Assembly (NCBI GenBank): GCA_964658305.1
Contig: OZ210884.1
Span: forward strand, 5,642,001 to 5,706,000
DNA length: 64,000 bases
DNA from: Leptogorgia sarmentosa
Lineage: Eukaryota
Direction: 5' to 3'
Shown: positions 3,824 through 35,800 of the stretch, piece by piece
Layout of the letters: each line of letters begins with the position of its first letter
Position numbering within the stretch: the stretch's first letter is position 1
Program-made: the position numbers and the translations under genes
Notes under the pieces: model-generated
Database searches by the model: none
Told to the model about the DNA's origin: nothing
What the model saw: the letters and a program-made list of their open reading frames with translations, nothing else

Positions 3824-4816
3824 TTATGAATGTTCAGAGGCCACGCGTAAGCCGCGGTGTCGACGAAATATTCCTGAAAGAATATCTTTAAAGGCTTTTC
3901 TGTATTTCATATGCCTCATTCCATAGATGAAGGGATTCACAATTGAGTTTATTCCATACAGCTCATAGTGCAAAACTACGTACCAAGTGTGGCGGCATGA
4001 TTCGGTACAAAAATTTGTCAGAGCTAAACCGATTAGGGTTGGGGTTAGCACACAGAAAGCCAAGACCACTATCACAACAGAAAATGTCTTCGCTTCTTTT
4101 AAAGCAGAGAAAAAACGGCGTATAGCGATCAAGTTTTGGGAGGATTGCTCATTTCCGACCGTTATAGTTTCTTCTCTCAAGATTCGTTTTCTTTGTTTAC
4201 AGCCTACACTCAAAATTCGAAAGTTGAGCACAAACACTATAACAAGTGGAAGAAATCCAACAAAAACGACCAGAAACAAAAAAAAGTTTTTATGTACGAC
4301 ACGACACAAGCCTCTACGCGGAGAGTCAAATTTTCTTGAGTAAATTTGTAACACAGTTAAAAAGCCACAGGATATAAGCCATATTCCTGAAACAGCTACC
4401 AATACGCGTCGGTTGGTGACAATTATTGGATATTTTAGAGGTCGTACAATGTATATGTAGCGATCAACAGTAATTGCGAGAAGCGTAGCGATAGAAGCGA
4501 AGAAAAATGACCAGATAGTCGATCGACTTAACTTACAAAACAAATCTTGATCGCTGTCAATGTCTAATATCGTCCGTACGAACTCAGTTATCCAAATTGG
4601 ATAAAATGTTAAACACACAAGAAGATCTGCCAGTGCCAGGTTTCCGACCAAGTAAGATGTCACCGTCTTGTCTTTTTTCAAAAAAATTGTGTAAATTAGA
4701 ACAGCAATGTTTCCAATTGCTCCAATAATCATTGCAATGAATTTGAATGAAACTGATGGGAGAAGAATCTCTCTTCCTACTGCAAATAAATGTGTCGTGG
4801 TATTGCTCATAATCAT
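3824..4816 (-). CDS. Intronless rhodopsin-like (class A) GPCR, 330 aa
   Basis: Seven hydrophobic segments, GN in TM1, NLALAD in TM2, Cys at the top of TM3, DRY and NPFIY. Confidence 0.95.
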   Translation of the reverse strand: MIMSNTTTHLFAVGREILLPSVSFKFIAMIIGAIGNIAVLIYTIFLKKDKTVTSYLVGNLALADLLVCLTFYPIWITEFVRTILDIDSDQDLFCKLSRSTIWSFFFASIATLLAITVDRYIYIVRPLKYPIIVTNRRVLVAVSGIWLISCGFLTVLQIYSRKFDSPRRGLCRVVHKNFFLFLVVFVGFLPLVIVFVLNFRILSVGCKQRKRILREETITVGNEQSSQNLIAIRRFFSALKEAKTFSVVIVVLAFCVLTPTLIGLALTNFCTESCRHTWYVVLHYELYGINSIVNPFIYGMRHMKYRKAFKDILSGIFRRHRGLRVASEHS

Positions 4817-5504
4817 CCCCGGGTATAGAAAGCAAAGGATGTTTTACAGTACACTTGCCTGTTTGAAATTTTGAAACGACTTAAAATATTAACTAAAACG
4901 TCTTAATGCATCCACTTATCGTGAATTTGCATAAAGGTCATTAGCAAAAAAATATTATATAAAGTTATATAGCGAATTCAAAGTAAGCTTAGGCTAAAAT
5001 CGCGTCCGTATAACGCTACTTTTTGTGTCATTTACGAGAGTGTTTCAAGACATTGTGAAACAGTTTAAACAGAATAACTTTTGTGACATATTTTCGCTCG
5101 TATATACATGTCTTTATATTGCCATTTTTGCTTAATGGGTAATATAACATATGTACATATAGTAGTTAGTCAGTCGTCTAAAAATAAGCCATAAAATTGC
5201 TGTATGATAATTGAACAGCTGTTAAGAACTGTCCAGCATGCAAATAAGACGATGTCACGGACTGATGTCAGGCTATAATACGTTTAGCGCATTTGATCAG
5301 AGCAGCACATAATGCCACAAAAATAATAAGTAGTATTATTATAATTATATAGTAGACAGTAAGGTACCGAAAAATACACAGTGAGATATTTTCTATTACT
5401 TTACTAGTGAAGATATCAATCATGCGACCATTTCATGTCCAATTATTAATTTTCAAAATGGCGACGTTTGCCTGAGAGTGGCGAATTAATTTTTGTTTTC
5501 TGTT

Positions 5505-6764: not shown

Positions 6765-7718
6765 TTATTGGCAGTGGAGTATTCTCAAGATGGCATGTCC
6801 GTATGCTCTTCTACACTTTACATGTCTCATTCCGTAGATGAAAGAATTCACAATAGAGTTAATACCATAAAGTTCGTATTGAAAAACAACAAACCAAATC
6901 TGCTGGCAAGACCGATTACAAAAACCAAAATCTACGAATGATCCCACGAGAGTTGGAATAAAACAGCATAACATCAACACTATGACAACAATAAAAAATG
7001 TCTTAGTTGATTTCAAAGCTTGGAAGAGTTGAATTCTAGTAGTCATGATGTTGGCCGACGATTCAACAGAACAGGGTGCCATATTTGTGATGCGTCTACG
7101 TTGTTTCCGAGCGATATTTAAGATGACAAAATTAAGAAGAAATATTATGAAAAGTGGTATGAAGCCAACAAGCATGTCCGACAACAAAGCAAAATGTGCG
7201 GGTAGATCGCAGAAGCTTCTTAATCCAATGCTAGACTTGGTGAAATGTGCTTCAAATAAAACAAAAAGACAACAGAAAATCACCCAGATTGCAAAAATAG
7301 CTTGAACAACCCGTCGTTTTATGACGATAAGCGGATACATGAGGGGTTTTACAATAAATAGAAACCGGTCTACAGTTATTGCGAGAAGTGTAGCAACTGA
7401 AACAAAGAGAAATGACCAGATGGTTGAGCGACTCAATTTACAGAATAGATCCTGATCACTATCAATGTTTAGCATAGTCCGAATAAACTCAGCGATCCAT
7501 ATTGGATAAAACGTTAAACACACGAGAAGATCTGCCAGTGCCAAATTTCCGACCAAATATGTTGTCGCTGTTTTTTCCTTGCTTGTGAATAATGTACAAA
7601 TTAAAACTGTCATATTTCCCAAAATTCCAATAACCATTGCGATAAGTTTAAATACCACTGAAGGAAAGAGAATGTAATTGGGAAGCGACACTGACTTCGT
7701 TAAGGTGATATTCTCCAT
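6765..7718 (-). CDS. Intronless rhodopsin-like (class A) GPCR, paralog of the 3824-4816 gene
   Basis: ATG at 7718 (MENITL). TM2-TM3 is nearly identical to the neighbour (YLVGNLALADLLVCLTFYPIWI...DSDQDLFCKLSRSTIWSF). Has DRF, and TM7 reads NSFIY. Confidence 0.93.
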   Translation of the reverse strand: MENITLTKSVSLPNYILFPSVVFKLIAMVIGILGNMTVLICTLFTSKEKTATTYLVGNLALADLLVCLTFYPIWIAEFIRTMLNIDSDQDLFCKLSRSTIWSFLFVSVATLLAITVDRFLFIVKPLMYPLIVIKRRVVQAIFAIWVIFCCLFVLFEAHFTKSSIGLRSFCDLPAHFALLSDMLVGFIPLFIIFLLNFVILNIARKQRRRITNMAPCSVESSANIMTTRIQLFQALKSTKTFFIVVIVLMLCCFIPTLVGSFVDFGFCNRSCQQIWFVVFQYELYGINSIVNSFIYGMRHVKCRRAYGHAILRILHCQ

Positions 7719-9605
7719 TATTTTCTTTGTACTACAGTAGGTCCTCAGCTTTGTATGGGTTGTCAGGGTTACCAAAGCCTGTAACTTACGCAGAAGCTCT
7801 GAGTCAGCGTTGTTTTCACAAATTCTCGTTGGATCACAGCACGTTACTCAATCGACATTCACTTAGTCCATTGTGTACTTCGCACGATATTCAGGTTATG
7901 AATAAATTGAAATTATACTCGATGCCAAAGTTGGTAAATAATCAAAAATATAGACTGTAACACAGTAACCCATATAATATCTATTGCAAATGGAACTGTT
8001 ACTTCATGCACAATAATTATAAAAACCTTTGGAGATTAATAATTTTTCAAATTTGTGATTAATCATTCATGATGATAGATTAGTCAAACTTGATAAACTT
8101 ATCTGCAACTTCCTCAATTATAACTAACAGCAAATTTTCACTGAACAATGTACAACATACTACTTTCTCTTCAAGATTGACAGTGTGATATGCTGCAGCT
8201 GGCGACAGCTGCTCAGAATTGTAACTTTATCCCTATTACATGAAACTTTATCGTGTGATGAATTGTGTTCCAACACGGTTTTGCAATTTTATCATGCAGA
8301 AATAATCTAAACTCCAGGAACGATAGATAATATACCCGCGTTTTCTACCAGATGAAAAAAAAGTGATGGGTACAGAAAGTGTATATGAATATTAAAATTA
8401 GATGCCACTTTTTAAAGTAAAGAACTTTATCATGCCAATCACAATCTAAGTGATACGTTCAGTGTTTTATTCACATTCTCTGAGTCAACTAACAGGATGG
8501 CATTATATTTCCAGTGATTCTTGTTCAGTTAAAGTTACTCCTACGAGAGGAGTAAAACGTATACTTTAAGCGATTTATATAAAAAAATTTGGAAACTTAT
8601 GTAGGATTTCCTTAAAAAGAAATATTAAAATAGTACGTAGCTATAGGTAGCTATATATTACATATATTTATTACTTTCACGATTTGTATTTATGCATGGT
8701 GTCAACAATCTGAAAAATTACACAAATGCTTTAATCAAATTGCCACAGTTTAGGGCATTCACATTTTTCTCACTCAATAACTCGCTAGGCTCTATTAAAC
8801 TCGTAAGGTTCAGGGCCAGCTAGATGTTTAGATTCTTCATATTCCCCCATGCAGAATCCCGCAAATTATTTTGTTGAACTCGCGTCCGCCATAAATTTGG
8901 ACAATTATATTCGAAGCCTCATATGTAGTTTTCGAAAAAGGCACAGTTCACATTCACGTGAGAAAAGAAGCGAGAAATCAATGTCCATGTTTGATCGTGT
9001 ATTTTTAAAAAAACATCAATTTGTCTCGCATTGCATTGCATTGGCAAAAATATTTTTGCCAAATTTTTCAACACTTGAAATATAAAAAAAATACTCTGTT
9101 CGTTACAGAAATGTTTTTATTTATTCAGCATTGTTTTTCACTTCTTTTATTTTAGTACTGACGCCATCTCAAAAATGAATGGAAACTGAGACAATTTGAC
9201 ATCACTCATTCCAATTTTGTTTGGGGAACCAATAGTGCGCATTATTTACAGCTTCGTATTGGAGTAATTGGTGGAAGGCAGATAATCAAAACGCGCTTCA
9301 GAGCTTTTGCGAGTTGCCCGATATGTAGTATGGTTATTAACGGGTCTAATTGTGCTTTTCCACTTTCATTTTTTTTCATTATAAAAATGAAGACTACTAT
9401 TTGGAAAACATTGGGGGGCAGTTGCCCCCCCTTGCCCCCCCTTGCCGGCGCCACTGGTACCTCGATCGAAGACTGACGGGTAATGAAAGTAAAAAAAGGA
9501 ATGAAAAATACAACGCATTTGTTATAGACCCAGGCCATGTACTCAAGATCAGACGAGCAGTGAAGGCTTGCAAAAGTTGCAATACAGTAGTTCTCGATTG
9601 GATAA

Positions 9606-15884: not shown

Positions 15885-18800
15885 TTAGATCGCCGTTCCA
15901 TTTGGAACGCGCTCTGGAAGAAGATAGACGTACGGAACTTCCAGATTCTTGTTTCGTTCTTTTATTTTCTTTGAAACATCTTCCAACTTATCTTGGAAAC
16001 GGCTGATTGCGTCAAGAACTTCCCTGTCCTCCCAGGCTGTTGCACTGTAGTTGCCCAGATAGCGCTGAAAAAAAAATTAATCAACGACGCTTATTAAACA
16101 CACCACTAAGTCAACAACTTAAGTATGTACAGCCGTTCAATTCAAATACAGTATGCTTCATAAAGATCTGGTTCGAGCTTCATCGATAAGGCGTAGGCGA
16201 TTAAACTTGAATGTCTGCGAATTGTAGTAGTCAGGGAATGAAAAACAACTGGCTGTCGTTTAACCATTTCCAACTAAGCATCCTCTGCAATGTCACTGCC
16301 TTGTCACTGGATTGTAGTATTAGCAAGAAGCAGCAAAGTTGTACTCACTGTCCCAACGTTACGACGAAATTCCACGTTAGGAGCAAAGGCCCTTCGTCGG
16401 GAATCAGACTGCTTGAGGATTGTAGTATTACTCTCCTTCAGCTAGGCGTTATACAGGGTGTCCGAAGAAAAGTGACCTCTATAGGTCATCATGTGGTTTC
16501 CTTGACTTGTGCTAGTGGTAAAATATATGATATAGGCCGAGCGCTGCTTACGCCTGGAGTTTTAACAGTAAAAACACCGCCTACTCCAATTTTCATGGAC
16601 TAAGCTTGATAAGTAGGATAAAAGCCGTTTATAAAGATCATACGGCATAAATAGGAAAATGTAATTGACCAATTAATACGAGTTACCTCATCCTCAGAAT
16701 ACTTCGTCAAAATGTAGACGGTTGCAATAGCTTTGGCTGCCTGAGCTTTGCTTGGTAGAGTTGACAGAATTGACTGAAGGTTTGCTTCTCCTTTCTTTTT
16801 TGGTGGTGGCTTTCGCATGATGGCTGGAGCGTTTGGTGTGAATCCAAAATGATCTTTCTGGCTGAAATTCACTGCCGCATGTTGGCAAGAGAAGTTAAAA
16901 ATGAGTGAGGTGAGAACTTCAATAAGTTGCTCGCGGCTTTCAAAGGACGTTGGGACTCCATGATCTTTATGATCAGATTTAGCACGCCAACCATTTTTGT
17001 GCACGTCATAGATCCAGCTTTGAATCTCATCATCTCGTTTTACGTCGTCATCATTCTTGTAGAAGATCCCGATGATTTCACCAACAAATGCCTGAATGAT
17101 TTCCCACAGAGCCAGACCATCGTCTCGATAGTAATAACCTGGTAGCTTGGAAGTATCGTCAACACCGCGCTTCTTCAATGCATTCGGAAAGTTGTAGTCT
17201 TGAAGATTCACCTAAGAATGCAGAAATTTATTGAACGCGCTTTCATATTTCCAGCCTTCTTGCACGTTCGTGTAAATTAGCAAACTGACAATTCTGTGTG
17301 GACTGGGCACAAGTTTAACGTTGCGCTAAGAACGGCGTTAAGGATACCCTTCCCCTTCGGAGCACTATTTTTTGGCCTTGCATGACAAATTTCTTTGCAT
17401 GTCTGGAATTTCAAGCACATTTTGCTTCTGGTAATATTGTAACTCTTACGTTCTCCAGAGGGTGTCCCCAAAAGAATAATTATGTAGCATTCAGATTCAG
17501 GTTATATAGCTGTTAATTGAAACGAGTTATTGTAATGCATTCCACTTCCTTTTCGCTTTTGAACAATGTCGCAAACAGTTTATACCAAAGGGACATAAAG
17601 AGAAGAAGCTTAACGACATGAAACTCGGCATGTTTTGAATTTCTTCACAATAAGTTGTATCAACTAACGCACCAATTTGAATCTAAATACCACAGTATCA
17701 GTATGGCATTTTGGGGGATAAATGTCAAAAGTTAACCAAACATTGTTTTCAGAAATAATTTCACCATAATCAGTCATTATAATTAGGGTGAGTGAATTGC
17801 TTAGTGTACGTAGATAAAACGTCTAATTTTCATTTTTGAAGATGTTTACCTCTTTGAAACATTTCGCCATGAATGTGACATGACCACCTCCACCTAAAGA
17901 CAATGATTTATCCACGATTCCTCCCGATCCAATCAACTCTTTACGACCAATTGTATCGATAGCAAGGATGCCATAGACGTGAGGATACAGTAATTTAAAT
18001 ACCGGATGAGCTGAAGCAAGATTTCGCCATGTTGACAAGGCAAACGGCTCACAACATAGATGTGTCCGTAGTAAGTGAGTATTGAGCTGAAAAGAATTAA
18101 GTTCATTATTTTTACCAATTTTAAGCAAATTTAAATTATCATAAGGCAAATTTAATTTTTTTAATTATTCGGATTATACACGCTAGTTGCGATGATTAGG
18201 TGGAAATTTGTCTGACATTTGATTAACATTAATCGCTTCGTTTCGCATATAGACTGAAGAGCAGTTATAGATGTTTCTGGACATGCTCCTAACACTAAGG
18301 TGTGCCACTATAACGAGGTTATCAATTCAAAAACAATGATTTTACCTGGTGGTAATTTGATTCGGCAACACCAACCCAAAACTTCGCCAACATCCAGTCA
18401 TGTACATTCGGCTCCTGCGGTGTCCATATTGGATTTTCTGGACCAGGTTCTTGATTAATTTGAATGGCAATTGGCATAAGATGACCAACTTTATTGACAT
18501 AAAACAAGGCAAGTGGGGCAGCACAGTAACGGATGTCTGCATCATCGTTGTTTAAGTGATCAGGTACTTTATATCCCTCGTCTTCTAATATTCGTCCGCC
18601 ATAGCATTTAGCACCAACGAGTATTTTAAAATCAGCCAAGTAGATATGTCCATCCTATATAAAATATAAAATAAATGTTACCGAATCGCCTTGGATTATC
18701 TGAGAAAGTGGTGAGGCAATGAAATTTGGCATCATTGTGTGAAATAACTGTTGACTAATGTGAACTGAATGTAAATTCTATCGGATCAATGTTTGAAATA

Positions 18801-21800
18801 AACTTACCTTCATTTCTTGTTCCAAGGTCTTCCCACTATCCAAGGAGGCTTTCACATCATTATTTGTTACTGGAAAATTTTCAGGAAGGGATTCACAACG
18901 AACCAGAGCCACAGGATTTGCCCCATTTAAAAATTTGTAAGCAAACCAACGATCTTCGCTCCATCGGTCCGCCATATTGGGAGTATCACCGAGGATCCAA
19001 TTACGGTACATAATACGGTAATCATCATAATCATCCCAATCTTCGAATTCCGACAAAAACGAGCCAATGCCAAGATTAAACAGAGCTTCTTTTCTGCTTG
19101 ACTGGTAAGACCTGAGGTAATATTGAAATGTAAAATTCATAATTGGAGCAACATATAGAGAGTGACTAAAAAATCACTGGAACATATTGTTGGAACCTGG
19201 CAATTTCCGTGAGTACATTTCACCATTTTGCCTTTTTGAAGAACTGATACGGCAAAGTTAAAAGTTGTGCAGAGTACAGCGGAAAATACATTTTCACTCG
19301 TATAGGAAATTAAATCAGATCGATTGAGATAGTTAGTTCACATGATGTAAACTAAGATTTTTGACTGGACAATATAAATTTGAGGTATAAGAATTAATTT
19401 CATAACTGATTAATTTCACAACGACGATGATACAGTTGCAACAGTAGGCAACGAAATTAAACATACTTAGTTTTCTCGTCAGTAAATTGAACATCGCGTG
19501 GGAGATCGCTATGAGCTTTTGCATTGATATTTCCTGGCATGTCGTCTGACACATAGTCCCACTGATATGTCGCCTTTCTCTGCTTCAGTTCTTTCTGCCG
19601 CTGTTCACTAACTATCGCTGGCATTTCATAAAATGATAGGGTTGCTAGACATGAAGAAATGAAAAAATAATTAAATTATATTAAATTCACAGCCTATATG
19701 ACCCGTAAAGCAAAATATATAGCAGCTAATTTCGTGGGACATGAACGCATGCTCAATTTATAACAGCAATTCTATACAATACTATTCCTATACAATGGCA
19801 ATTTTTTTCTATCGTTATCTTTATCACGTGCCATATTTACATATCATGCATATCATATCCGTGTTAGTACTGAGTATTCGGCTGTCGCCGGTTTATGCGC
19901 TAACCAAGGCTTGCAAGACGTTTCAGTTATATATAGAATCAATGTCTAGGCTTTACCTTCACCAGGGAACAATACCATATCCTTGATTATCCATTGAAAA
20001 CATGGGAATGAATATACGCGGCCTTGAGTTGAGCTTAATACAGTTACCTAGGTTCAAATTTTAAACATTTAGTGCGCTATTTATAAATTATCATTAATAA
20101 AGGTGTAACCTACTCATTGCGTAATGTATAAGCTTAAGAAAAAAATGGTACATAAATTTAATGGTTTTAATTTCATTACTTTAATATCCTTTCGGAGTGT
20201 TTGGGAAGTGAAAATCCAACCTCGTTCCCAGGGTCTTGATGAAGACCCTGGGAACGAGGTTGGCGAAAATCTTTACTTTGGGGAATAAAGCCGGTTTTCC
20301 ACTTGCGAATTTTGTCCCGCAAGGGATTTTGATTTTGATTTTTTTCGAATGATTCCTACTCGTTCGTACCCGGCGAAAAAAGTCGCAACCTAAATAGATT
20401 TCAAAGCTGCTATCCAGTGATATATTCGATGTATTCAAAATCTTTCCTTAATAATACTTTGTACGTCGATTTTTAAGGTCGTCCGAGCAATCTTAGCAAG
20501 TTATTTCGGATAAACACGAGTCAACTGCGGTTCAGGGCCGCCATTTTGTTTCTGTAGCTTCCCGCGCGTAGCTATATAGGAAACAAACACCTATTCGTCA
20601 TTCAAGAAAAAGTCCGCCTCGCGCAACAAAATTCGCAAGTGGAAAAACGGCGTAAGAGGGAAGAATCGAACCTATGTATTCTTCAACGGTAATTTACCTT
20701 GTTCACAAACCAGTCTGGATCGCCAGACCAATATCCTCCTCCATCAGAATGAAGCTCAATAAGATGAATATCTCCAACGTCGAAAGCTTCCACTTTATAG
20801 TGCTCTTTACTTCCAGCTTCAAAATCATTATGGAACCATTTGTCGAGCGTTAGGTAATCTGTACGGCCTTTTGCACCTGAGAATTAAATAACGGAAAATA
20901 TACTTGTCCGTTATAATGTTATAATGTTGAATTACTGTTTATATGTACTGTACCTGTGATTCTGATGGTGATAGTTGCATCTGTCCCAGCATGCTCTCTG
21001 CTACCAGTTTCAACCCCAATATCATAAATAGCGTTTTTTGCAGCAGGGATTATGGAACCGAATTTCAACTTGCGAATATTTTGCACCCAAGAATATACTG
21101 CAGCACGTGTTTCCCCAAGGCTGTTGTAATCTTCAGGTGACGTAGCTTCAAGTAAGCCCAAGGATTCTGGTTGATTGATAACGTTGAAACCAGTTCTGAT
21201 AAAATAGAATTGTGCATGATCGCTGTTGAATTTCTTACCTCACATATTAAAACGAATTAATGTCGATTGCAGTGGAGCACAATTTTATTGGTAGCTCGAA
21301 ATCCATGACAGTTTTGTAGCAATTTGATATTTTTCCGCAATTTCAACTAAATAATTACTGTCAGCTCATTAACAAAATTTCTAAATTTCGCACCTTTCTG
21401 TAACATCTGGGGAAAGATGAGTCTTGATTGAGACTGTGGCCAGGTCAAACCAAGGATGTGTCTCCTTGTCCCACAAAATACCAGCATGAAAGATGGTTGC
21501 GGTGTCACTTGGGGATGCTTCATGAATTTGAATTTGCAAGCGGTAATTTATTGGACCTTTTTCCAGACGATTGACATACTCCTGTCGCAAGTAGTCCTTG
21601 GGTCGTTTCTCACTTTCATGCCGTTCAAGAATCCTGGAGAAAGCATAAGATAAACGAACAAGTGAACTAAATGGCGGGCATATGTTAGATAATACTCCAA
21701 AGAAACGCTAGGACTTGGCGTAATAAGCGTGATTACGTTAATTCGGCTACACAAACGCTACATTACCGTATTATAAAAAGGCAAATTATAACGTATTATA

Positions 21801-24772
21801 AAAAAGGACTAGTTATTTCGTATTAGTTTTTCGCCGCCTGAGAAAATATCAATTCTTCATTTGTTTATGACGTTACAACCTGCAACTTGTTAGGGCAACA
21901 TCTTGGTTAAGACTTTAAAATTTATTTCACTTATTACAGCGAATAAACTGAGTTCTTTGACCATTTGTTGGTATACTTGAAACTGCTAACCATGCCCAAC
22001 GTTTTATTGACAATTTAAAAAGTATCCATCATGTCTAATGCTTGTTCTGTTGTGCGCGGATGTTAAAATGTCAACCAAGACGGCGGCCAATTGCGAACCA
22101 TAATCTTTTGGAGAAGCCAAACAAGTGTACATGTTCTGCCTCCGAAAATACACTTAATCTATCTAATATACCATATTGCAAATGATAGCGATTCACAGGA
22201 TATCTTGACGAGGGGGATGCTTGACAACAGCAGTTACTGTCTGGCGGAGGGGGCTGGATGGAAGGTGCAAATCACCTCCGAGGGAATTTTCACACTGAAC
22301 AGCATGACAGTGTTTAAGAAGTTTAAAATTGGGACACACAAAGCGAGAGAAATCGTGTACCGGAGCAGAATGAATGTCAGCGTACAAGAACTAAATGATG
22401 CATGTCTACTTTCGCTATAGTTATCTTTGTTTAAAAAATAGAGATCAGGTACTTAAACTTGCATATTCAGCGTCCAAATGTACACTTTTATTATAAACCA
22501 AATTTGGTGCGAAATGATAGGTGATGTTATAGCCAATTTATTTTATAGGTCAAAGCATTTTGAAAATCTGAATCATAAAGTTGTATGCAAGTCATGGCTT
22601 TTATTCACTATAAAGTACAAAAATCCTCAAATAGTTACCAAATTTTTCTTTGTTCCTCTTCAGTTAATCTGCCACTTTCATCCTCCTCCTTGATATCAAC
22701 ATCTCCTGGGATGGCTCGATATCTGCAGTACCTCACCTTTCCATCTTTAGCTTTGAAATGCATCGTCAACTGAGAGTAGTAGTATAGGTGTGCAAATGTG
22801 TCAGGAGCACGACGTATGGCTTCGATCAGATAATAATAACTATAATTGAGTTGCAATAAATTAAAGGAATTTCAGAGAACGCCTGGAAAGTTAGGCGAGA
22901 TTGTTTATAAGCAGTTCTGCTGAAGTATGCAGGACAAAGAAAATCATTCCCACACTTTTTTGAGGGATGTCCACCGAAAACTGATAGCTATAATTGTATT
23001 ACATTAGGATGACTGTGCACTCGGAGCGTCCATTGTACAGTTATAAAGCATTACTTGCGCCGGAAACCACAGTCAGACCATTCAAAGCTAAAGCTCAACA
23101 CAGAGACTAAAATCTGGACGCAGATAAATTAAATTATTATACATTAATTTTGTAGATGGTAAAAGCAATCTGATTGGCTAAGAGCATACAGTTAAATCGC
23201 GCAATTACGCAACCCACAGGAAATCCAGTTATCTGCTAGCAGATAACTGAGTTATCTGCTAGCAGATAACTAATTACTAGGTACAAAATGAGCCTGTTTT
23301 CAGTATGGTTTCATAAATAAAGTTTTTCATGCGTTAATACTTGGTTTATTATTCTTCAAATGTATAATAAAACAATTATTGAATTCGGTTTTTGTGATAT
23401 GCAAAATTATCAAGGTCTCGGTAAGCGTTACCTCGACCTTGATAATTCCGCATATCACAAAAACCTCATCCAATAATTGTTAACAATTACTTACTAATAA
23501 GGGTTTTTGTAAACATAATCTTCAATAGTAGCCCCTCCTCGATTTCTCGATATAAAATCTTCGAAACTTTGGATATTCCAGAAGATATTAGCTTCACCAG
23601 TGTTCATCATGATATCCATTGGACTTTCATGATCACTGTCAGCAAATTTGATTGAAAATGATCTGCCATCCCCACTTGCGTCATCCTCATGCGTCAGATT
23701 AGCGTGACGTAATCTTGCAGGAAATATGCGACCTAGTGAAGTGGATTTTCACCTTTTATATTGCATATTGGCATATTCGCAAAAAAAAAGGAGAAACTGC
23801 CTTTTGATAATAAACGAGAATTAAAATTACACATAAAATTTCTTAAAAACTTTCGTAAATTATTCAACAGTTTGTAGCGATCTTCAATCCAATCGCAAAT
23901 TGTTGTATATTATACTTAAGTTTATTTTAGCCATGTTAAAAATGTTTTTAGCCTTTTTATATATGGCTAGTACTGTACTAACCAGCGCTAAAGAATTCAT
24001 GTTCTGGAAATTTTGGGTTATCAACAATTTTCACTTCACCAACACCACCAACACCAAAAGGATGACTAGCTCTACCGAATCCTTTAATACTTGTTGCGAG
24101 GCCAAGTAGCATTTTGAATTTTTCTTTTTTCATCTTCAACTTAAGACGCCCAAATATGGGAGAATCAGGTGGTGGCTGAAAGTTAGACAATTTTAAATCT
24201 GTGAGATTTAATTGCATAGTACTGTAATGAACAATTCCCATTGTAGACTAATTTTTGATCCAGAGAAATCCATAGGAAAAACGAAATTCTCGAAAAGAAC
24301 CTTTCAAAAGTAGTTGAGAGCTTTTTGCCCGAATTTCAGGGTAGCGAATCTCATGAGGTGCGTTTGAACATTTAGATCTAGGTTGCTGGAACAGAGTCCT
24401 AACTTCACGATAACTAACTTCATGGTACGTTCGTTCATGTGAACGAATGAATAATTTTTGATATCACCTTATTCCTCAGATTTTTGCCCGAATTATGCTC
24501 AAAAGTTGCCCAAATTTTTGGCCTTCGAATTTTGAGTGCAAAAGTGTTGATCACTTACTGTGAGTTCATCTTTCAATCTTTTCTCTAACTCTTCTTTTCC
24601 AAATTTCTCGGCATATATTTCAAATCCAAAATTTTTCCCTATAAAACAACGTGTATCCACTTGGAAATATACAATATATACATCTTTCATATATTTGATC
24701 TTCAATTGTGAAGTTGTAAATTTTCAATGACAAGAAGAGAAACTGATATTAATGGTTTTACTTACAAACCAT
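15885..24772 (-). CDS. Catalase-related hemoprotein-lipoxygenase fusion, copy B (divergent AOS/HPL-like domain + PLAT + 8R-type LOX), 1067 aa
   Basis: 15 exons: 24772-24766, 24638-24559, 24175-23983, 23732-23495, 22839-22639, 21633-21394, 21195-20954, 20876-20698, 20047-19957, 19644-19467, 19111-18808, 18654-18346, 18086-17850, 17211-16687, 16064-15885 (3204 nt). Starts MVWKNFGFEI. Retains the distal His (RASHPF), Asn (MNTGE) and proximal RxxxY. LOX iron ligands HLLRTH, QHAAVN and C-terminal PNGTAI are present. Confidence 0.93.
20217..20262. repeat. Short perfect palindromic element in an intron of copy B
   Basis: CAACCTCGTTCCCAGGGTCTT gatg AAGACCCTGGGAACGAGGTTG. Confidence 0.85.
20290..20652. 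mobile_element. Harbinger-like MITE in an intron of copy B
   Basis: TIRs GCCGGTTTTCCACTTGCGAATTTTGT...ACAAAATTCGCAAGTGGAAAAACGGC with TAA-like flanks. A related shorter element lies at about 11224-11365. Confidence 0.75.
23370..23483. repeat. Long imperfect hairpin (interspersed repeat end) next to an exon donor of copy B
   Basis: aacaattattgaattcggtttttgtgatatgc...gcatatcacaaaaacctcatccaataattgtt is self-complementary. Confidence 0.7.
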
Positions 24773-26816: not shown

Positions 26817-29800
26817 TTAGATCGCCGTTCCATTTGGAATGCGCTCTGGGAGAAGATAGACGTACGGAACTTCCAGATTCTTGTTTCGTTCTTTTATTTT
26901 CTTTGAAACATCTTCCAGTTTATCTTGGAAACGGTTGATTGCGTCAAGAGCTTCCTTGTCCTCCCAGGCTGTAGCACTGTAGTTGCCCAGATAGCGCTGA
27001 AAAATCAATAAATACTATTTTCATGGCCAACATTTGCATTTTAGAGGGGAAGAAAGGAAAGTAACAATTTGTTGCGCCCCATTCCCCTGATAAATTAGAT
27101 GAATTGCGGTCGTTTGGCCCACAATCGTTTGGCCCACCGTTAATCTAACCCTATGCCTGACCCTCGGCGAAATAAATGTGTGCGAACCGACATGAGGGCG
27201 AAAGGACTGGTTACCAATTAATGTCATGTGTAAATAAATAGAGGCCGGAAAATGCGGTTGCAATAAAACAAACCCACACTTCCCATCCCGGATGCTACGG
27301 CTTACCTCGTCATCAGAATATTTCGTCAAAATGTAGACAGTTGCAATAGCTTTGACTGCTTGAGCTTTGTTTGGTAGAGTTGACAGAATTGACTGAAGGC
27401 TTGCTTCTCCTTTCTTTTTTGGTGGTGGCTTTCGCATGATGGCTGGGGCGTTTGGTGTGAATCCAAAATGATCTTTCTGGCTGAAATTCACTGCCGCATG
27501 TTGGCAAGACAAGGTAAAAATGAGTGAGGTGAGAACTTCAATAAGTTGCTCGCGGCTTTCAAAGGACGTTGGGACTCCATGATCTTTATGATCAGATTTA
27601 GCACGCCAACCATTTTTGTGCACGTCATAGATCCAGCTTTGAATCTCATTATCTCGTTTTACGTCGTCATCGTTCTTGTAGAAGATCCCGATGATTTCAC
27701 CAACAAATGCCAGAATGATTTCCCACAGAGCCAGACCATCGTCTCGATAGTAATAACCTGGTAGCTTGGAAGTATCGTCAACACCGCGCTTTTTCAATGC
27801 ATCCGGAAAGTTGTAGTCTTGCAGATTCACCTAACAAAACGCAATGTTTTTTTAAGAAAACGTGCAGAACGTTTCTCTTCCCAAGAAAACGTTTTGAAAA
27901 AGTACGGCAGATAATTTTTATTGGTTTCGGTTTTTCAGTAAAAGATTTGAACTTTATTGCTTCAAGGATTTCGCTTTTCATTGTATTTAAGTCTTTTTCA
28001 ATTTAGGAGCATGGTCGCCATGTTTGTTTTGTTTTGAATCCTTGATGATTTTAGTTGATTTCAGTTTCTACTGTTTCTGACAAATCATGGCAGATCAGTT
28101 AATTCAGCTAAATTATATCCATAAAACATTTTCTTTATTATTGGAAGATGTTTACCTCTTTGAAACATTTCGCCATGAATGTGACATGACCACCTCCACC
28201 TAAAGACAATGATTTATCCACGATTCCTCCCGATCCAATCAACTCTTTACGACCAATTGTATCGATAGCAAGGATGCCATAGACGTGAGGATACAGTAAT
28301 TTAAATACCGGATGAGCTGAAGCAAGATTTCGCCATGTTGACAAGGCAAAAGGCTCACAACATAGATGTGTTCGTAGTAAGTGAGTATTGAGCTGAAAGA
28401 AAATGAACGGTTTGATTATTGGTGTATAGACGTTAAATGGTACAGTATCGTCAGCTGATCTTAACACTTAGAGATCTTTAGAGATCTTTCTGCTTGTTTA
28501 AAACAACTGGAAATGAGGATTGTATGACTGTTCTAACACTGCATGAAGGCATTTACCCACCAAAACATGACATCAAATATATACTTGAGCAACTTTGTCT
28601 TGTCCTATGCATTCATACATGCTTTAGTGTATAAAAATTAAGCATTAATAATAAGTAATGCTATTCTACAAACTATATGTAATCAAAATGGTTTTATTTC
28701 ATTCAGGGGAGCTGGAGATTAGCCATTTAAATACAATCAACATACCTGGTGGTAATTTGATTCGGCAACACCAACCCAAAACTTCGCCAACATCCAGTCA
28801 TGTACATTCGGCTCCTGCGGTGTCCATATTGGATTTTCTGGACCAGGTTCTTGATTAATTTGAATGGCAATTGGCATAAGATGACCAACTTTATTGACAT
28901 AAAACAAGGCAAGTGGCGCAGCACAGTAACGGATGTCTGCATCATCGTTGTTTAAGTGATCAGGTACTTTATATCCCTCGTCTTCTAATATTCGTCCGCC
29001 ATAGCATTTAGCGCCAACGAGTACTTTAAAATCAGCCAAATAGATATGTCCATCCTATACAATGGCAAAGATAAAACTGACACTGTGCGCCGTTGGAAGA
29101 CAAAAGCATCTCTGTGTAGTATCGACGAAGACGGCACAAGTTTTAGTGTCTAATAGTAATTCATTATAGTTAATTTCATATGCAATTGGTCGGTTGTTTC
29201 CCTTCTATATTCCATGGGCTCCTTACAATCAATGCGCCGTATCTATTTTTATTGTTTTTTATTGTAGACAATTTACCTGTACAGACTGCTTGTCTGTATT
29301 TTCAGTATATTATAACGAAAAATATAAAATTCTTGGAAACTTCTCCCCCAATTCCTAACTTTTCCAACGAAAATGCACTGCCAATTGTAGATGACGTAAT
29401 TTCATCAATATGTAATGGTAAGCGCTGAAGTGCAACGAAGATCGGTGGATAACCGGGGGGCATTGGGGGAAAGTGCCCCCCCCCACTTTTTGTACAAAGG
29501 GTAAATGTGCGCTTTTTTGAAAGGAAAATGCTCTTTTTCATCTGTGCCCTTTTTGGTTTGTGCCCCCCCCCACTTTTGAGGGGCTTCCGCGGCCCCTGGG
29601 GATATATAAATCAATAACGCATCAGTTCGTGAACCAAGCGTAAGAGCCTAGGAACAAAGTTAAACATGTCTCTCACCTTCATTTCTTGTTGCAACGTCTT
29701 CCCTCTATCCAATGAGGCTTTCACATCATTATTTGTTACTGGGAAATTTTCAGGAAGGGATTCACAACGAACCAGAGCGACAGGATTTGCCCCATTTAAA

Positions 29801-32800
29801 AACTTGTAAGCAAACCAACGATCTTCGCTCCATCGGTCCGCCATATTGGGAGTATCACCAAGGATCCAATTACGGTACAAAATACGGTAATCATCATAAT
29901 CATCCCAATCTTCGAATTTCGACAGAAACGAGGCAAAGCAAAGATTAAGCAGAGCTTCTTTTCTGCTTGACTGGTAAGACCTGAGGTAATATTGGAACGT
30001 GAAACAACGATTTTTCAGGACGTTCAATGTCAACTTAATGGAGTAGAATGAACGTTTTTGCATCGAAATAGTACAATAGGCAATTAAATGGCGCGAGGTG
30101 TTGGATTGTGGTTTTAATAGTGGTATTCGATTTATGGCTGGGAAAGTGGTTCAACATGGAAATTTTTAGATACCCATGCATTTTAGATACCTGGATTTCT
30201 CGTCAGTAAATTGAACATCGCGTGGAAGATCGCTATGAGCTTTTGCATTGATATTTCCTGGCATGTCGTCTGACACATAGGCCCACTGGTATGTCGCCTT
30301 TCTCTGCTTCAGTTCTTTCTGCCGCTGTTCACTAACTATCGCTGGTACTTGATGGAAAGGCAAGGTTGCTACAGAATTCGAAAAAAGAGCTACAATTAAA
30401 ATTTGTGTAAATAATTGTTTCCTGTGCGCCTATGACATGATCAATTATCGCGATGATGATTGATCTATTATCAATTATGAATGATCAATTATCGATGATG
30501 ATATGTACGCCGCACGGCATAACATTGCATCTCCTGTTCCAAAGAAGCCAATATACGTACATCCCGGTTAGCCAAAGGTTTATTGCAAGAGCTGAGTCTT
30601 ACCTTGACCAGGGAATAACACCATATCTTTGAGTATCCATCGGAAACATGGGAAAGAGTAGACGCGATCTTGACTTGAGCTCAATATAATGACCTAAATT
30701 CAATTTATTGCATGATTTGGTTAACTTATAGCTATTTACTCTCATTTTGAATGCCTATAGATAATTCCATTATCCTTTTCGCAAATAGTGGCCACCACAA
30801 AATTGACTGACTTTTCAAATACGAAATCCCAAAGTATTATTTTCTCAATGACAAGCAAAATATCTAGCACTTATTTTGTTCGAAGCACAAATATTCATTT
30901 CCATTATGGTAATTAAAATCTTCATATTTTCTCAAAAGCTTATTGCATGTATAGGGTGATGAATAGTGTTCTATCTCTGTGCCTCATTTTTTACGTGGTT
31001 TAAAATTCTGAAATGCACGTGGTACACACCCAAATACATTAATTATAGATCACAATTTTAATCCTCAAACATCTAATCCTTTGATTGACAAAGAATTAAC
31101 TCTCGTTATCTTAAACCTAGCTAGCCTGCGCGCGCGTAATCTCAACGGAGGGAAAACTCAAGAAAGCTGTTTACGTAGACATTGTGTGCGCAAGCAAAGA
31201 TTCAAACGGTATGTAAGTATGCTTATGAATCTAATTATTTTTTAGCTAGTCATTGATTTACCTTGTTCACAAACCAGTCTGGATCACCAGACCAATATCC
31301 TCCTCCATCAGAATGAAGCTCAATAAGATGAATATCTCCAACGTCGAAAGCTTCCACTTTATATTGCTCTTTACTTCCAGCTTCGAAATCATTATGGAAC
31401 CATTTGTCGAGCGTAAGATAATCTGTACGGCCTTTTGCACCTACAAAATTATATAAATTGGCGCCTTTTTACTGGCAGCTAAATTTTGATTTTCTCCACG
31501 TACTCTATGATGTTTGTGCATTAGCTGTGCTTTAGTGCTGAGTTACCTAGCAGATTAAAATAGATCAACTAAATATACTGTACCTGTAATTCTGATTGTA
31601 ATAGTTGAATCTGTCCCAGCATGCTCTCTGTCACCAGTCTCAATTTCAATATTATAGACAGCGTTTTGCCCAGCAGGGATAACGGAACCGATTTTTAACT
31701 TGCGAATATGCTGCACCCAAGAGTATACTGCCACACGCAACTCTCCAATGCTGTTATAATCACCAGGTGATTTAGCTTCAAGTAAGCCTAAGGAATCTGG
31801 CTGGTTAACAATGTTGAAACAAGTCCTAATTGAAAAAAATTACGATTGGTAAGTTTTATTTAAGACTTCACATTTTAGTCAGATATTTTGATCTGTAACA
31901 TATAATTTTGTGTAAGATGGGTTACAAAATGTATTAACGTTTTTTGATCTTGGTAAATGTTGAAATTAAGAATGTCAACCACGTGTTGGGGTGATTGCGA
32001 TCAATGATACAACCCAGGTCATCTCGTGTACGTGTTTTAGCCAATCAGCGTTCAGAAAGGGTTGTATATAGTAGTGGATTTCTTACCTTTCCAAAACATC
32101 TGGGGAAAGTGGAGTCTTGATTGACACAGTTGCCAGGTCAAACCAAGGATGTGTCTCCTTGTCCCACAAAATACCAGCATGAAAGATGGTTGCGGTGTCG
32201 CTCGGGGATGCTTCATGAATTTGAATTTGCAAGCGGTAATTTACAGCTCCTTTGCTCAAACGGTTGACGTACTCTTGGCGTAAATAGTCGTCGGGACGTT
32301 TCTCATTTTCATGTCGGCTGAAAATCCTATAGAATGCCAAGCCACAGTTTGAGCGTCATATTGCAACACAAAAAACACGTTACACCATTAAACGCTTATC
32401 CGAATTCCTTTCTCACGATTTTAAATAGCTAGGTCGACAAGCCATGATGATATCGAAACATTTTCTTATTGAGATATTATATGCAGTTAATCTCTTATTT
32501 GAAGACAACGTGCCTGATACTGGAGTTTAATCATGAAAAAATGGTGTATAATAGCACCAACTTCTCTTTGGGACAGACGTCAGTAGTTCCGGAGTTTGAA
32601 AAAATTCACATTCGTTCACTTGACTGTTTTGTTTTATATCGCTCTTGATTGGTACCGAATATGAAAATTGATACTTACCAAATTTTTCTTTGTTCCTCTT
32701 CAGTTAATCTGCCACTTTCATCCTCCTCCTTGATATCAACATCTCCTGGGATGGCTCGATATCTGCAGTACCTCACCTTTCCATCTTTAGCTTTGAAATG

Positions 32801-35800
32801 CATCGTCAACTGAGAGTAGTAGTATAGGTATGCAAATGTGTCGGGGGCACGGCGCAGACCTTCAACCAGATTATAATAACTGAAATGGAATAGTTAAAAA
32901 TAATTTCTAGAAGAATATCGACAAGGTGATTATTTAAGAAATTAGAGTGCAACCGTTGCAGAATTGAAATCTATTTATCATGCCGACATGTACGTGTCTG
33001 GCAACCTCATGGAAAATATATGCCACTTTGACATTCTTCCCCAACTAATCTCTTATGTATTCGTTATGAAATGCATGAATATTCACTTTTAATTCCATGA
33101 ATACCGCTGCAAATAATAATTTTGAGAACTGTTGAGTGAGTGAAGGCCACTCCACTTGCAACAAGGCAAGAGCACGGACTTGACAAACCGTTCCAAGGTA
33201 TTATCTATCACGAGGTATGTAAACTGACTGTAAAGTATAGGTTTGGTGTACATGACTGTACATACCCTAAGTGCACAAACGACTGACGCTATTAATTTAG
33301 GAAAATAAAAGTCTCATCGAGAATAAAGACTTATTTTGATTGCATGTCTTACATTTAATCTAGGAAAAAACGATTACAATGAAGAAAGAATAAATATATG
33401 CAAATGAAGTAAATCAAAAGTTGTGAAGAAAAATGAATGATGCGTGAGGCCGTTCAGAAAAAAGTGCACATTTAATTGAAAATATTAATGATCAACACAG
33501 AATTTAACGGCCAACAACGCAAAACTTACTAGTAAGGGTTCTTGTAAACATATTTTTCAGCGGTTTCCCCTTCCTTAACCGGTACAAAGTCTTCCAAACT
33601 TGCGGTATCCCAGAATATATTAGCTTCGCCAGTATTCATGACGATATCCATTGGACTTTCACTATCATTGTCCGAAAATTTGATCGAAAATGACCTGGCA
33701 TCCGACCCTGCGTCATCCGGAAATTTGAGATTTCCGTGACGTAATCTTGCCGGGAATTCTCGACCTAGATTCAGACAGTTTTGTGATTAAGCTCATCGTA
33801 TTAATATTTTCAAATACAGTATTAGCTATACGCATTTCGGATTATCAAGATTATGTCAAGCGTTTAATATTGTGTGTCAAACCAACATTCAATTCCGTAG
33901 TCTTTGAAATTAAATCGGTCATATTATATCGAGTTCATCTCACAAGCATAATTGCTTTGAATCATTTAGTGAGCCTCATTTTCAAGTTATGGGGCATTTC
34001 TTCAGTAAATAAAGCAGGTTTTTGCGACATATCATCAAGTCTACGCAGTTGAAAACAATCGGATCACTATAATTATGACTAATTTGAATTTTAAACACTG
34101 CCGTTTTTTAGACACCTTGTGCTGTTACTGTAATGTATGGTACACTAACCAGCTGTAAAGAATTCATGTTCTGGAAATTTTGGTTTATCACAAATTTTGA
34201 CTTTTCCTACTCCGCCAGTGCCAACTGTGTGAGTGGCTCGGCGAAATCCTTTAAGAGTTGTTCCAAGTGTGAACAAAGTTTTGAATTTTTCTTTCTTCAT
34301 TTTTAACTTGAGCTCGCCGAATACAGGACATTCTTCAGGAGGCTGGAAACGAATGATTAAAGAACAATATGATATACCGCGCATAAATTCTTAGAAGAAA
34401 TTAAGTATCATGTGTCATAACTATGATTTCAATATCGTTCATTTTATAACAAAACGCAAAGCGAGCATTATTTGAAAAGATCATACACGTAGAGATGCTC
34501 CAGAGCGATAGATGGTGACTGAGTAATAGTTTGCAATATATACTAGGCTGGACTATATTGATAATTTGATATATCCCCTTATTTTCATACAATATTGACA
34601 GAGAGAGAGTTAATCTTCGTTGATATATGTTCTAACCAACATCAAGTTGTAGCTAGGTGATGCGAAAACATGGGCTTTGCGTGGGTCGAATTTTGTTTTA
34701 TCGTTTAAGTGGTGAGGGCAAATTTTGATCTTGAAATATTGATTATTCTGGTCTATCCGGCAATGAAAAAACCAGAGGCACAGGGTCTCCTGCGAGCACA
34801 GACTATGAATTTAAAGTCAATATGGCGACTGTCTGTATAATTGCTTCAATAGAAATACATATGAGCAAAAAAACATTTGATTTTATCCTTTATTGAAACG
34901 AAAAGCGGAACAAAAGCTGAAATGAACAGACTTATCAAAAGGCTTCATATCGAATTACCGACTTATTTCATTAATTTCAAGCCCAATTTTTAAAGTGATA
35001 AAAATATTTGGACGACTACTTACTGTGTGTTCATCTTTAATTCTTTTCTCTAGTTCGTCTTTACCAAATCTCTCAGCAAATATTTCGAATCCAAAATTTT
35101 TCCCTTGGATAAAATGGACAGCAATGGAATTTCAAGCAGTGCCAGTGCATGTGATATTATAATATACAGACGCATTTCTATCATGGGATTCATATCATAA
35201 TACTTAATCGGCATAAGCACATGCATGACATGATGCGAAAGTACCAATCTTGCATACACTGACTTTAACTTAGTTTTACCAGGCTGCTTAACGGAAGAAA
35301 TAAGACGATTATTGCTACCGAAAAGCAAATCGACCGGAGGTTATTCAGTGGTTCATTTTCTGAAGGGTGAACCGTAAAATGAATGTGTTATTACAAGGTG
35401 TTCAAGCAGGACCACTAAGCTACTGAGGAATATGTCTGACATAATCAGCCCTGACGGACGACTTGTATAGACTTGATGACCCTCCCGCAACTGTTCCCCA
35501 GTTAGAAAGAATTTCAACCTGCATGTGCATGATTTTCACACATGGACCTTTTAGAAAATGTTGCACAACGAGTCTTAGACTTGAAGAGCCAGGAAGTCAG
35601 TATGTTGCTTGATTCATTGGCTATCACAGTAATATCAATCATGAGTTGACCCAGGCAGCTTAGTTCGCTGCATATAACATCCATCTCAAAAGCGGGCACT
35701 CATTTAAATAACAATGTGAAGATGGCAAAAAGTAGTAAATATAGATTAACAGTTAAATTGAAGACAATAAAATTATAAAATACTAATACTCACAAGCCAT
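26817..35800 (-). CDS. Allene oxide synthase-8R-lipoxygenase fusion protein (AOS-LOX), copy A, 1066 aa
   Basis: 15 exons: 35800-35794, 35103-35024, 34342-34150, 33764-33530, 32879-32679, 32326-32087, 31825-31584, 31440-31262, 30693-30603, 30368-30191, 29980-29677, 29054-28746, 28392-28156, 27830-27306, 26996-26817 (3201 nt). Canonical coral AOS signatures: TLFTLGTTLKGFRRATHTVG, NLKFPDD, SLEDFVPVKEG, YYNL, ELRVAVY. LOX has IDTIGR (Gly at the Coffa site, R-specific) and all iron ligands. Confidence 0.96.
29435..29597. mobile_element. Short GC-rich hAT-like non-autonomous element or remnant in an intron of copy A
   Basis: On the minus strand it begins CAGGGGCCGCGGAAGCCCCTCAAAAGTGGGGGGGGC with poly-G/poly-C subterminal tracts like those of the 1597-2466 element. 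The other end is degraded. Confidence 0.5.

What the first reader, a model, noticed from the sequence alone, without database searches (positions are those of the whole stretch)
20954..24772. Copy B carries a remodelled catalase-like active site: candidate third type of coral oxylipin enzyme
Seen: copy B keeps the heme machinery (distal His67, Asn137, proximal Arg/Tyr, Tyr193), but pocket residues differ sharply from copy A. TLFTLGTTLKGFRRATHTVGT becomes MLLGLATSIKGFGRASHPFGV (Thr66 to Ser, then Pro-Phe). NLKFPDDAGSDA becomes NLTHEDDASGDG (Lys107 lost). SLEDFVPVKEGETAEKY becomes SFEDFISRNRGGATIEDY (Leu150 to Phe plus a one-residue insertion, exon 238 vs 235 nt). YNLVEGL becomes YYLIEAI, WIFSR becomes WILER, and IGELRVAVY becomes LGETRAAVY. 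Known, from memory: the Capnella imbricata catalase-related hydroperoxide lyase differs from AOS at Phe150, the 155-160 loop, YS for NL, and positions 56, 59-60 and 65, and the Thr66-His67 pair governs hydroperoxide versus H2O2 reactivity. Copy B shares Phe150 and the Tyr, lacks the other lyase changes and adds its own. Inference: it may be a divergent lyase or make a different product (for example epoxyalcohol, ketone, divinyl ether or a different allene oxide) from the same LOX hydroperoxide.
Basis: partly seen in the sequence, partly recalled or inferred. Interest (0 to 1): 0.88.

Follow-up and report, generated by a model that had tools for sequence, protein, structure and literature searches.

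The report
Coral oxylipin enzyme with reshaped pocket
This genome, likely a soft coral's, has two neighbouring copies of a known fatty-acid signalling enzyme: their lipoxygenase halves are nearly identical, but one copy's heme pocket differs from both characterised coral versions, so it likely turns the same peroxide into a different product, most likely cleavage aldehydes.

Summary
Copy B (24772-15885, minus strand) is an intact 15-exon, 1067-aa catalase-like heme domain / C2 / lipoxygenase fusion, tandem to copy A. All heme and iron ligands are kept and every listed pocket change is real.

New here: A/B introns are essentially unalignable, yet the LOX exons are nearly identical at silent sites (28 of 527 differ, against 68 of 285 in the heme domain). 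That pattern points to gene conversion that spares the pocket. Around literature pocket residues B is only 59% identical to Plexaura AOS and 56% to Capnella lyase; proven AOS enzymes are 84-90% identical to Plexaura AOS.

B shares the lyase's published one-residue loop insertion, Ser155, Phe150, Tyr176 and Ile178. Ser66, Phe150 and loss of Lys107 are common in the wider family. Dendronephthya also has uncharacterised remodelled paralogs.

The product cannot be read from sequence. My odds: lyase-type 0.35, retuned AOS 0.28, epoxyalcohol or other third product 0.27, peroxide sink or inactive 0.10. It is a new variant of a known family and a good, cheap assay target.

The parts
15885..24772 (-). 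Copy B gene: 15-exon catalase-like heme domain / C2 (PLAT) / lipoxygenase fusion, 1067 aa, open frame, all 14 introns GT-AG
24766..24772 (-). B exon 1 (start codon)
24559..24638 (-). B exon 2
23983..24175 (-). B exon 3, residues 30-94: entrance helix, Arg64, Ser66-His67-Pro68-Phe69; 71.5% nt identity to A
23495..23732 (-). B exon 4, residues 95-172: Arg102, Thr107, His/Tyr108, Asn137, Phe150, loop 155-161 with the one-residue insertion; 76.5% nt identity to A
22639..22839 (-). B exon 5: Tyr176-Leu177-Ile178, then a 155-nt run identical to A (inferred conversion tract)
21394..21633 (-). B exon 6: Leu242-Glu243 in place of Phe-Ser
20954..21195 (-). B exon 7: proximal helix Arg350/Tyr354/Arg361 (349/353/360 in Plexaura) and start of the C2 domain
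19957..20876 (-). B exons 8-9 (20876-20698, 20047-19957): C2/PLAT domain
   Evidence: the homologous region of Capnella P0029 is PLAT
15885..19644 (-). B exons 10-15: lipoxygenase domain with all five iron ligands and Gly at the R/S site; 96.5% aa identity to A over residues 580-1066
26817..35800 (-). Copy A gene: same 15-exon structure, 1066 aa, canonical AOS-type pocket (21 of 23 literature pocket residues as in Plexaura)

Best explanation
Copy B is an intact tandem paralog of the octocoral AOS-LOX fusion whose lipoxygenase likely makes the same 8R-hydroperoxide as copy A, and whose reshaped heme pocket most likely cleaves that peroxide to a C8 oxo-acid and a C12 aldehyde instead of making allene oxide. 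Shown: intact frame, all heme and iron ligands, Gly at the LOX R/S site, near-identical LOX exons with unalignable introns, and divergence concentrated at the pocket. Inferred: (1) gene conversion keeps the two LOX halves alike while selection keeps the pockets apart; (2) the heme still breaks the O-O bond to give the 8,9-epoxyallylic intermediate, with Ser66 standing in for Thr66; (3) Phe150, the longer 155-161 loop and Tyr176, all shared with Capnella cHPL, hold the intermediate away from His67, so C9 is not deprotonated and the C8-C9 bond breaks; (4) the carboxylate anchor moves from Lys107 to Lys60 or the new Arg156/Arg158. That B differs from A in product or substrate is about 0.8-0.9 likely. 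That cleavage is the main route is only a plurality.
For: Among 16 octocoral rows only B and cHPL have the longer loop. Both also carry Phe150, Ser155, Tyr176 and Ile178, and both replace Phe241 (insertion published). In a tree of residues 140-185, B and cHPL fall outside the other 11 octocoral rows (support 91/89). Phe150 and YS176-177 are the only tested changes that shift cHPL products (PMC5617202). A known AOS/lyase pair shows the same pattern of alike LOX and unlike pocket (Capnella a/b: 75% pocket segments, 92% LOX). Silent-site contrast 68 of 285 vs 28 of 527, p=5e-14; run-clustering permutation 0 of 10000. 12 of 14 intron pairs score no better than shuffles. dN is below dS in exons 2-15.
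Against: B has Leu177, whereas the authors name Ser177 as the lyase determinant. B also lacks Arg56, Met59-Glu60, Pro65 and Ile357. Its pocket is only 56% identical to cHPL, while proven AOS orthologs are 84-90% identical to Plexaura AOS. The loop swap did not change cHPL products, and cAOS L150F still made only AOS products. Whole-domain trees do not group B with cHPL; forcing it costs 10.4 log-likelihood units, though it is not rejected (p-AU 0.19). Phe150 and a longer loop are the family-wide states, so the sharing may be retained ancestry, and the 140-185 tree has long branches and only 47 columns. Unconverted exons can also persist simply because they are too divergent to convert; exon 9, outside the pocket, is unconverted too.
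Confidence: 0.35

Rival explanations
1. B is a third product type. After O-O cleavage the epoxyallylic intermediate is captured by oxygen rebound or water, giving epoxyalcohols and trihydroxy acids (or another rearrangement product) as the main output.
For: The cHPL mutant with Phe150, the long loop and Leu177 (YS176-177NL) gave 46% trihydroxy plus 15% epoxyalcohol products, 18% oxo-acid and 9% ketol (PMC5617202). B naturally has Phe150, the long loop and Leu177. B is equally far from both characterised pockets (38 and 40 of 68). It has changes next to His67 (Gly63, Ser66, Pro68, Phe69, Val71), four of which (all but Pro68) no other row of the 16 octocoral rows has. It has the longest single end branch among the octocoral rows.
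Against: That mutant has Asn176 where B has Tyr, in a different background, and the authors read its products as uncontrolled catalysis. No natural coral catalase-type epoxyalcohol synthase turned up in my searches. Most of B's residues are states common in the wider family.
Confidence: 0.27
2. B is still an allene oxide synthase but retuned: a different fatty-acid preference (for example EPA- or DHA-derived hydroperoxides), different kinetics or different regulation.
For: At 56, 59-60, 65, 177 and 357 B is AOS-like (Ala, Ile-Lys, Ala, Leu, Val). cAOS L150F, which has Phe150 and the same Leu, makes only AOS products. Ser keeps the hydroxyl of Thr66 and is the second commonest residue there (47 of 133). 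Many B changes lie at the channel mouth (56, 107-109, 155-161), where cHPL mutations changed rates but not products.
Against: Both copies carry almost the same LOX, so the in-cis substrate should be the same, which leaves less reason to keep two pockets for one reaction (inference). Proven AOS enzymes from three species keep 22 of 23 core pocket residues against Plexaura; B keeps 12 of 23.
Confidence: 0.28
3. B's heme domain is a peroxide sink (catalase- or peroxidase-like) or is weakly active, so the fusion mainly releases 8R-hydroperoxide or 8R-HETE.
For: Thr66 and Lys107, both named as substrate contacts, are changed. Capnella cAOS itself shows measurable catalase activity (kcat 303 per second).
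Against: Position 66 is Ser, not the Val associated with catalase activity (the T66V mutant is mentioned; that true catalases have Val there is recalled). All heme ligands are kept, and dN/dS in the pocket exons is 0.13-0.34, which is not the pattern of decay.
Confidence: 0.1

Closest known systems
Capnella imbricata HPL-LOX (AOS-LOXb, AHK60923; catalase-related hydroperoxide lyase)
   Same: Same fusion architecture and 1067-aa length; one-residue insertion in the 155-161 loop, Phe150, Ser155, Tyr176, Ile178; paired with an AOS paralog that has a similar LOX.
   Different: B has Ala56, Ile59-Lys60, Ala65, Ser66, Pro68-Phe69, Thr107, Leu177 and Val357, where cHPL has Arg, Met-Glu, Pro, Thr, Thr-Val, Lys, Ser and Ile. 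Domain identity 76%, pocket 56%. They do not group in whole-domain trees.
Plexaura homomalla AOS-8R-LOX (PDB 1u5u, 3dy5; O16025) and the Gersemia and Capnella AOS-LOXa orthologs
   Same: Architecture, all heme ligands, LOX iron ligands and Gly800; domain identity 78% to B and 86% to copy A.
   Different: B keeps 12 of 23 core pocket residues, copy A 21 of 23.
Uncharacterised Dendronephthya gigantea paralogs XP_028395850 and XP_028395852/853
   Same: Also remodelled at the same hot spots: 850 has Phe150, Tyr175-Leu176, Ser113 and a changed 63 and 348; 852 has Pro68, His108, Phe150 and Ile177. Their scaffold and LOX are near-identical to their AOS-type neighbours.
   Different: They keep Thr66, Lys107 and the short loop, and their pockets are less divergent (65-72% to Plexaura).
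Paralogs kept distinct under gene conversion (Innan model; human RHCE/RHD example)
   Same: Divergence, including silent divergence, peaks at the selected segments while the rest is homogenised (PMC3966226 passages).
   Different: Here I had one genome sequence and no population data separating fixed from shared polymorphisms.

Membership tests
Coral catalase-related heme domain-lipoxygenase fusion family | N-terminal catalase-like domain + C2/PLAT + LOX in one reading frame | tested here: met
Coral catalase-related heme domain-lipoxygenase fusion family | Heme residues Arg64, Arg102, Arg360, His67, Asn137, Arg349, Tyr353 | tested here: met
   residue list from PMC5617202 and PMC5793058
Coral catalase-related heme domain-lipoxygenase fusion family | Thr66 next to the distal His | tested here: not met
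   B has Ser66; Ser is the second commonest state in distant relatives, 47 of 133
8R-lipoxygenase domain | Iron ligands His757, His762, His943, Asn947, C-terminal Ile; Gly at the R/S site | tested here: met
cAOS (allene oxide synthase) | Leu150, short PV-EG loop, Asn175-Leu176, Lys107 | tested here: not met
   only Leu176 is kept
cAOS (allene oxide synthase) | Forms allene oxide (alpha-ketol, cyclopentenone) from 8R-HpETE | not testable with these tools
   needs an enzyme assay
cHPL (hydroperoxide lyase) | Phe150 | tested here: met
cHPL (hydroperoxide lyase) | Tyr176-Ser177 (Ser177 named as determinant) | tested here: not met
   B has Tyr176-Leu177 (PMC5617202 abstract)
cHPL (hydroperoxide lyase) | One-residue insertion in the 155-161 loop | tested here: met
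   the loop sequence itself differs apart from Ser155 and Gly159
cHPL (hydroperoxide lyase) | Arg56, Met59-Glu60, Pro65, Ile357 | tested here: not met
   these did not alter products when mutated (Ile357 is not named in the product list, but only two mutants are said to shift)
cHPL (hydroperoxide lyase) | Orthology to Capnella HPL-LOX | tested here: inconclusive
   not grouped in whole-domain trees, not rejected (p-AU 0.19); separated together from the other octocoral rows in the 140-185 tree
cHPL (hydroperoxide lyase) | [quoted passage not shown] | not testable with these tools
   needs an enzyme assay
True catalase | Val next to the distal His (recalled) | tested here: not met
   Ser66

The most novel reading that the evidence does not exclude
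Copy B is the first natural member of a third product class of coral catalase-type enzymes, for example an epoxyalcohol/triol synthase. Octocorals would then keep tandem arrays in which gene conversion holds one lipoxygenase constant while selection diversifies interchangeable heme pockets, giving several oxylipin outputs from one hydroperoxide; the Dendronephthya paralogs would be further untested heads.
Probability: 0.27. Interest if true: 0.7.

Novelty: new variant of a known kind. Interest (0 to 1): 0.45.

Why it matters
The papers I could read describe only two product types for coral catalase-type heme domains (allene oxide and aldehydes), and what decides between them is only partly understood. 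B is a natural pocket equally distant from both, with an AOS-type sibling about 2 kb away and an almost identical LOX as a built-in control. One expression experiment would test the Phe150/Ser177 model and could add a new coral stress or defence oxylipin. The conversion pattern also offers a way to spot specificity-determining segments in other coral paralogs, and it warns that whole-protein trees and 'AOS-LOX-like' annotations hide such variants.

Tried and rejected
1. 'B keeps an ancestral pocket'. B is not closer than A to a profile of 144 distant relatives (36 vs 31 differing sites, p=0.63; against Plexaura 36 vs 37). Rejected as a general statement, although Phe150 and the longer loop individually match the family majority.

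2. 'B is an allele or assembly duplicate of A'. Rejected: introns and flanks do not align and independent contigs match B's own exon/intron stretches.

3. 'B is decaying'. Rejected: open frame, canonical splice sites, dN below dS.

4. Positive selection by pairwise dN/dS. Not seen (0.13 and 0.34 in exons 3 and 4); the test is weak for old divergence.

5. Searching for a B ortholog. Sampling is thin, so this is not evidence of absence.

6. No whole genome is held; no third copy in the window. No run was listed as RNA. A closer look at B-specific splice joints was not obtained, so they remain unseen.

7. The AlphaFold model was of the Plexaura domain, not of B (pLDDT 95). It gave secondary structure only, so no pocket geometry or docking was done.

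8. My first pocket definition was chosen after seeing B and is biased; I replaced it with literature-named positions.

9. Teder 2015, Mashhadi 2016, Tosha 2006 and Teder 2019 were not available. Searches for T66S data found nothing. Published Thr66, Lys60 and Lys107 mutant data in those papers may bear on the odds. The PDB supplement of PMC5617202 could not be read.

10. Earlier scan notes concern distant relatives in other genomes and were not used.
Full report
Gene structure. Six-frame motif scans found two copies of every quoted motif on the minus strand. Exon models with GT-AG at all 14 introns give open frames of 1066 aa (copy A, 35800-26817) and 1067 aa (copy B, 24772-15885) with matching exon lengths, except exon 4 (235 vs 238 nt). 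B exons 3, 4 and 7 match only the Plexaura homomalla AOS-LOX entries in the PDB and fix the numbering. The heme domains are 78-87% identical to octocoral proteins and about 40-48% to hexacoral ones, so the host is likely an octocoral. No third copy lies in the window.

The observation. His67, Asn137, Arg64, Arg102, Arg349, Tyr353 and Arg360 are kept, as are all five LOX iron ligands and Gly800, the R-specificity site (residue roles from PMC5617202, PMC3925239 and PMC5793058). I defined the pocket without reference to B, as the 23 positions named in PMC5617202 and PMC5793058, plus or minus two residues (68 sites). There A and B share 40 of 68 residues, against 250 of 298 elsewhere in the domain (p=2e-5). 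Copy A versus Plexaura shows no such contrast (60 of 68 vs 254 of 298, p=0.70). The characterised Gersemia and Capnella AOS enzymes keep 57 and 61 of 68 against Plexaura; cHPL keeps 47; B keeps 40 against Plexaura and 38 against cHPL. B is therefore the most divergent pocket among the 12 octocoral rows scored there.

Real and likely expressed. B's exon-3 peptide is on record from 4 contigs. I laid 4 of the 18 listed runs. One DNA-type run matches B exon/intron stretches with 0-3 differences. Three runs of unrecorded kind show joints at the predicted introns and so are RNA. In them a position in B exon 4 (only 76.5% like A, below the 93% threshold) is covered at contig depth 89, 78 and 14, against 3, 4 and 0 in a bin inside intron 5. 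One contig equals B exon 14 with 3 differences. Limits: contig depth shows presence, not level; the listed joints in B's LOX exons cannot be told from A's; 28 joints were not shown; no B-specific joint in the heme-domain exons was seen. Position 23691 reads as Tyr108 in two runs from different studies, so His108 is one allele.

Gene conversion. 12 of 14 intron pairs align no better than the best of 20 shuffles; the other two exceed it slightly and share bases beside the splice sites. Yet silent divergence is 0.03-0.11 in exons 11-15 and 0.36-0.65 in exons 2-4, 6 and 7, with identical runs up to 203 nt and a 155-nt run starting just after the Tyr176 helix. Silent differences: 68 of 285 codons in the heme domain, 28 of 527 in LOX (p=5e-14); 0 of 49 in codons 190-240; run clustering exceeded 10000 of 10000 permutations. 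The LOX tree joins A and B (SH-aLRT 100) while the heme-domain tree is a star. Capnella and Dendronephthya paralog pairs show the same contrast, whereas AOS orthologs from different species are at least as alike in those pocket segments as in LOX (segments chosen after seeing B). This fits an old duplication homogenised by conversion except where selection keeps the copies different (PMC3966226 passages). Against this: divergent exons also resist conversion mechanically, exon 9 in the C2 domain is unconverted too, and I have no population data. dN/dS in exons 3 and 4 is 0.13 and 0.34, so B is not decaying, and there is no pairwise sign of positive selection.

Relation to cHPL. However, cHPL has a one-residue insertion at 161 (PMC3925239), and among 16 octocoral rows only cHPL and B have it; they also share Phe150, Ser155, Tyr176 and Ile178. 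In a tree of residues 140-185 both lie outside the other 11 octocoral rows (91/89), but the segment is short and B is a long branch. Whole-domain trees do not join them, and the forced clade is worse by 10.4 units but not rejected (p-AU 0.19) (isoform XP_028395853 left out). B shares about as many unusual residues with Dendronephthya XP_028395852 (7) and XP_028395850 (6) as with cHPL (5 plus the insertion). Orthology is unresolved.

The wider family. Among the best 150 of 569 representatives related to the Plexaura domain (155 aligned stretches), position 66 is Thr in 76 and Ser in 47 of 133; position 150 is Phe in 117 of 143; Lys is not among the nine commonest residues at 107. The span 145-182 is 38 residues in cAOS, 39 in B and cHPL, and 40-41 in 86 of 142 rows. 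A nemertean AOS-LOX-like protein has Ser-His-Pro, and one octocoral-like exon fragment has Pro65-Ser66. These residues are therefore family-permitted, not inventions. B is not more ancestral overall.

Mechanism. From PMC5617202: both known enzymes form an epoxyallylic intermediate from 8R-HpETE; His67 removes the C9 hydrogen in AOS, and C8-C9 cleavage follows in the lyase. Only F150L and YS176-177NL shifted cHPL products. The latter gave 18% oxo-acid, 9% ketol, 46% trihydroxy and 15% epoxyalcohol products. cAOS L150F gave AOS products only, and the loop swap left products unchanged. B has Phe150, the long loop, Tyr176 and Leu177, so it lies between wild-type cHPL (aldehydes), the NL mutant (mostly oxygen-capture products) and cAOS L150F (allene oxide). 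Loss of Lys107 and Arg63 and gain of Arg156/Arg158 suggest a shifted carboxylate anchor (inference). I commit to lyase-type cleavage as the single most likely main route (0.35), because of the cluster shared with cHPL and the precedent of an AOS/lyase pair. Retuned AOS (0.28) and a third, epoxyalcohol-type product (0.27) are close behind; a peroxide sink or inactive domain is 0.10. These odds are judgement, not computation.

Novelty. The family, the fusion and both known reactions are published. I found no paper on this variant or on conversion in coral AOS-LOX arrays in nine searches; the library lacks most subscription papers. It fails the sequence tests for both cAOS and cHPL, so I file it as a new variant of a known kind. 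Other remodelled paralogs are already in public databases, which lowers surprise but widens the test.

Papers seen. PMC5617202: parts 1-4 of 5 of the text plus S1 Text and S2 Table. PMC3925239: passages. PMC5793058: passages and section 2.1.2. PMC10813956, PMC11719350, PMC3966226: passages. Teder 2015, Mashhadi 2016, Tosha 2006 and Teder 2019: nothing seen; anything attributed to them is recalled.

Noticed in passing
window 17450-17744 (-), inside intron 13 of copy B: In three RNA-type runs this unique intronic stretch is spliced to exon 14 at a canonical donor, at contig depth 666-1735, and exon 14 is far deeper than the upstream exons. The stretch has stops in frame with exon 14; the only long ORF is the last 104 codons of the LOX domain. 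It may be an abundant short, probably non-coding or truncated, transcript from an internal promoter.
   Followed up: partly
window 23691 (B exon 4): His108/Tyr108 polymorphism at the channel mouth; the Tyr allele is in contigs of two studies.
   Followed up: yes
B exon 13 (18086-17850) and A exon 13 (28392-28156): Both copies share LOX residues unlike eight other octocoral LOX domains, including Cys764-Cys765 (Thr-Thr elsewhere) right after iron ligand His762, and Tyr787. This might tune LOX specificity in this lineage.
   Followed up: no
A exon 11 (29980-29677), residues about 561-571: A local cluster of A/B amino-acid differences inside the otherwise homogenised LOX. Here copy A is the odd one (Cys563 where B and the other octocorals have Gly).
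   Followed up: no
proteins P0017, P0019/P0015, P0016 (Dendronephthya gigantea): Several AOS-LOX-like paralogs annotated on contigs of the same length carry differently remodelled pockets on near-identical scaffolds; all are annotated only as AOS-LOX-like.
   Followed up: partly
proteins P0075 and P0193: Unnamed octocoral-like exon fragments: one with Pro65-Ser66-His67-Ala68, one a more divergent heme-domain paralog (69% to Plexaura).
   Followed up: no
proteins P0076, P0078, P0079, P0085, P0080: AOS-LOX-like fusions in lancelets and a nemertean; several appear to lack the usual Thr/Ser-His motif or the proximal Tyr in my alignment.
   Followed up: no
window 3824-4843 (-), 6765-7847 (-), 42779-43801 (-): Three single-ORF rhodopsin-family GPCR genes flank the pair.
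   Followed up: partly
window 51083-53673 (+): MFS transporter gene in several exons.
   Followed up: partly
window 58802-61576 (+): Tectonin beta-propeller (lectin-like) gene exons.
   Followed up: partly
window 47051-47557 (-): 168-codon open stretch with no Pfam match.
   Followed up: no
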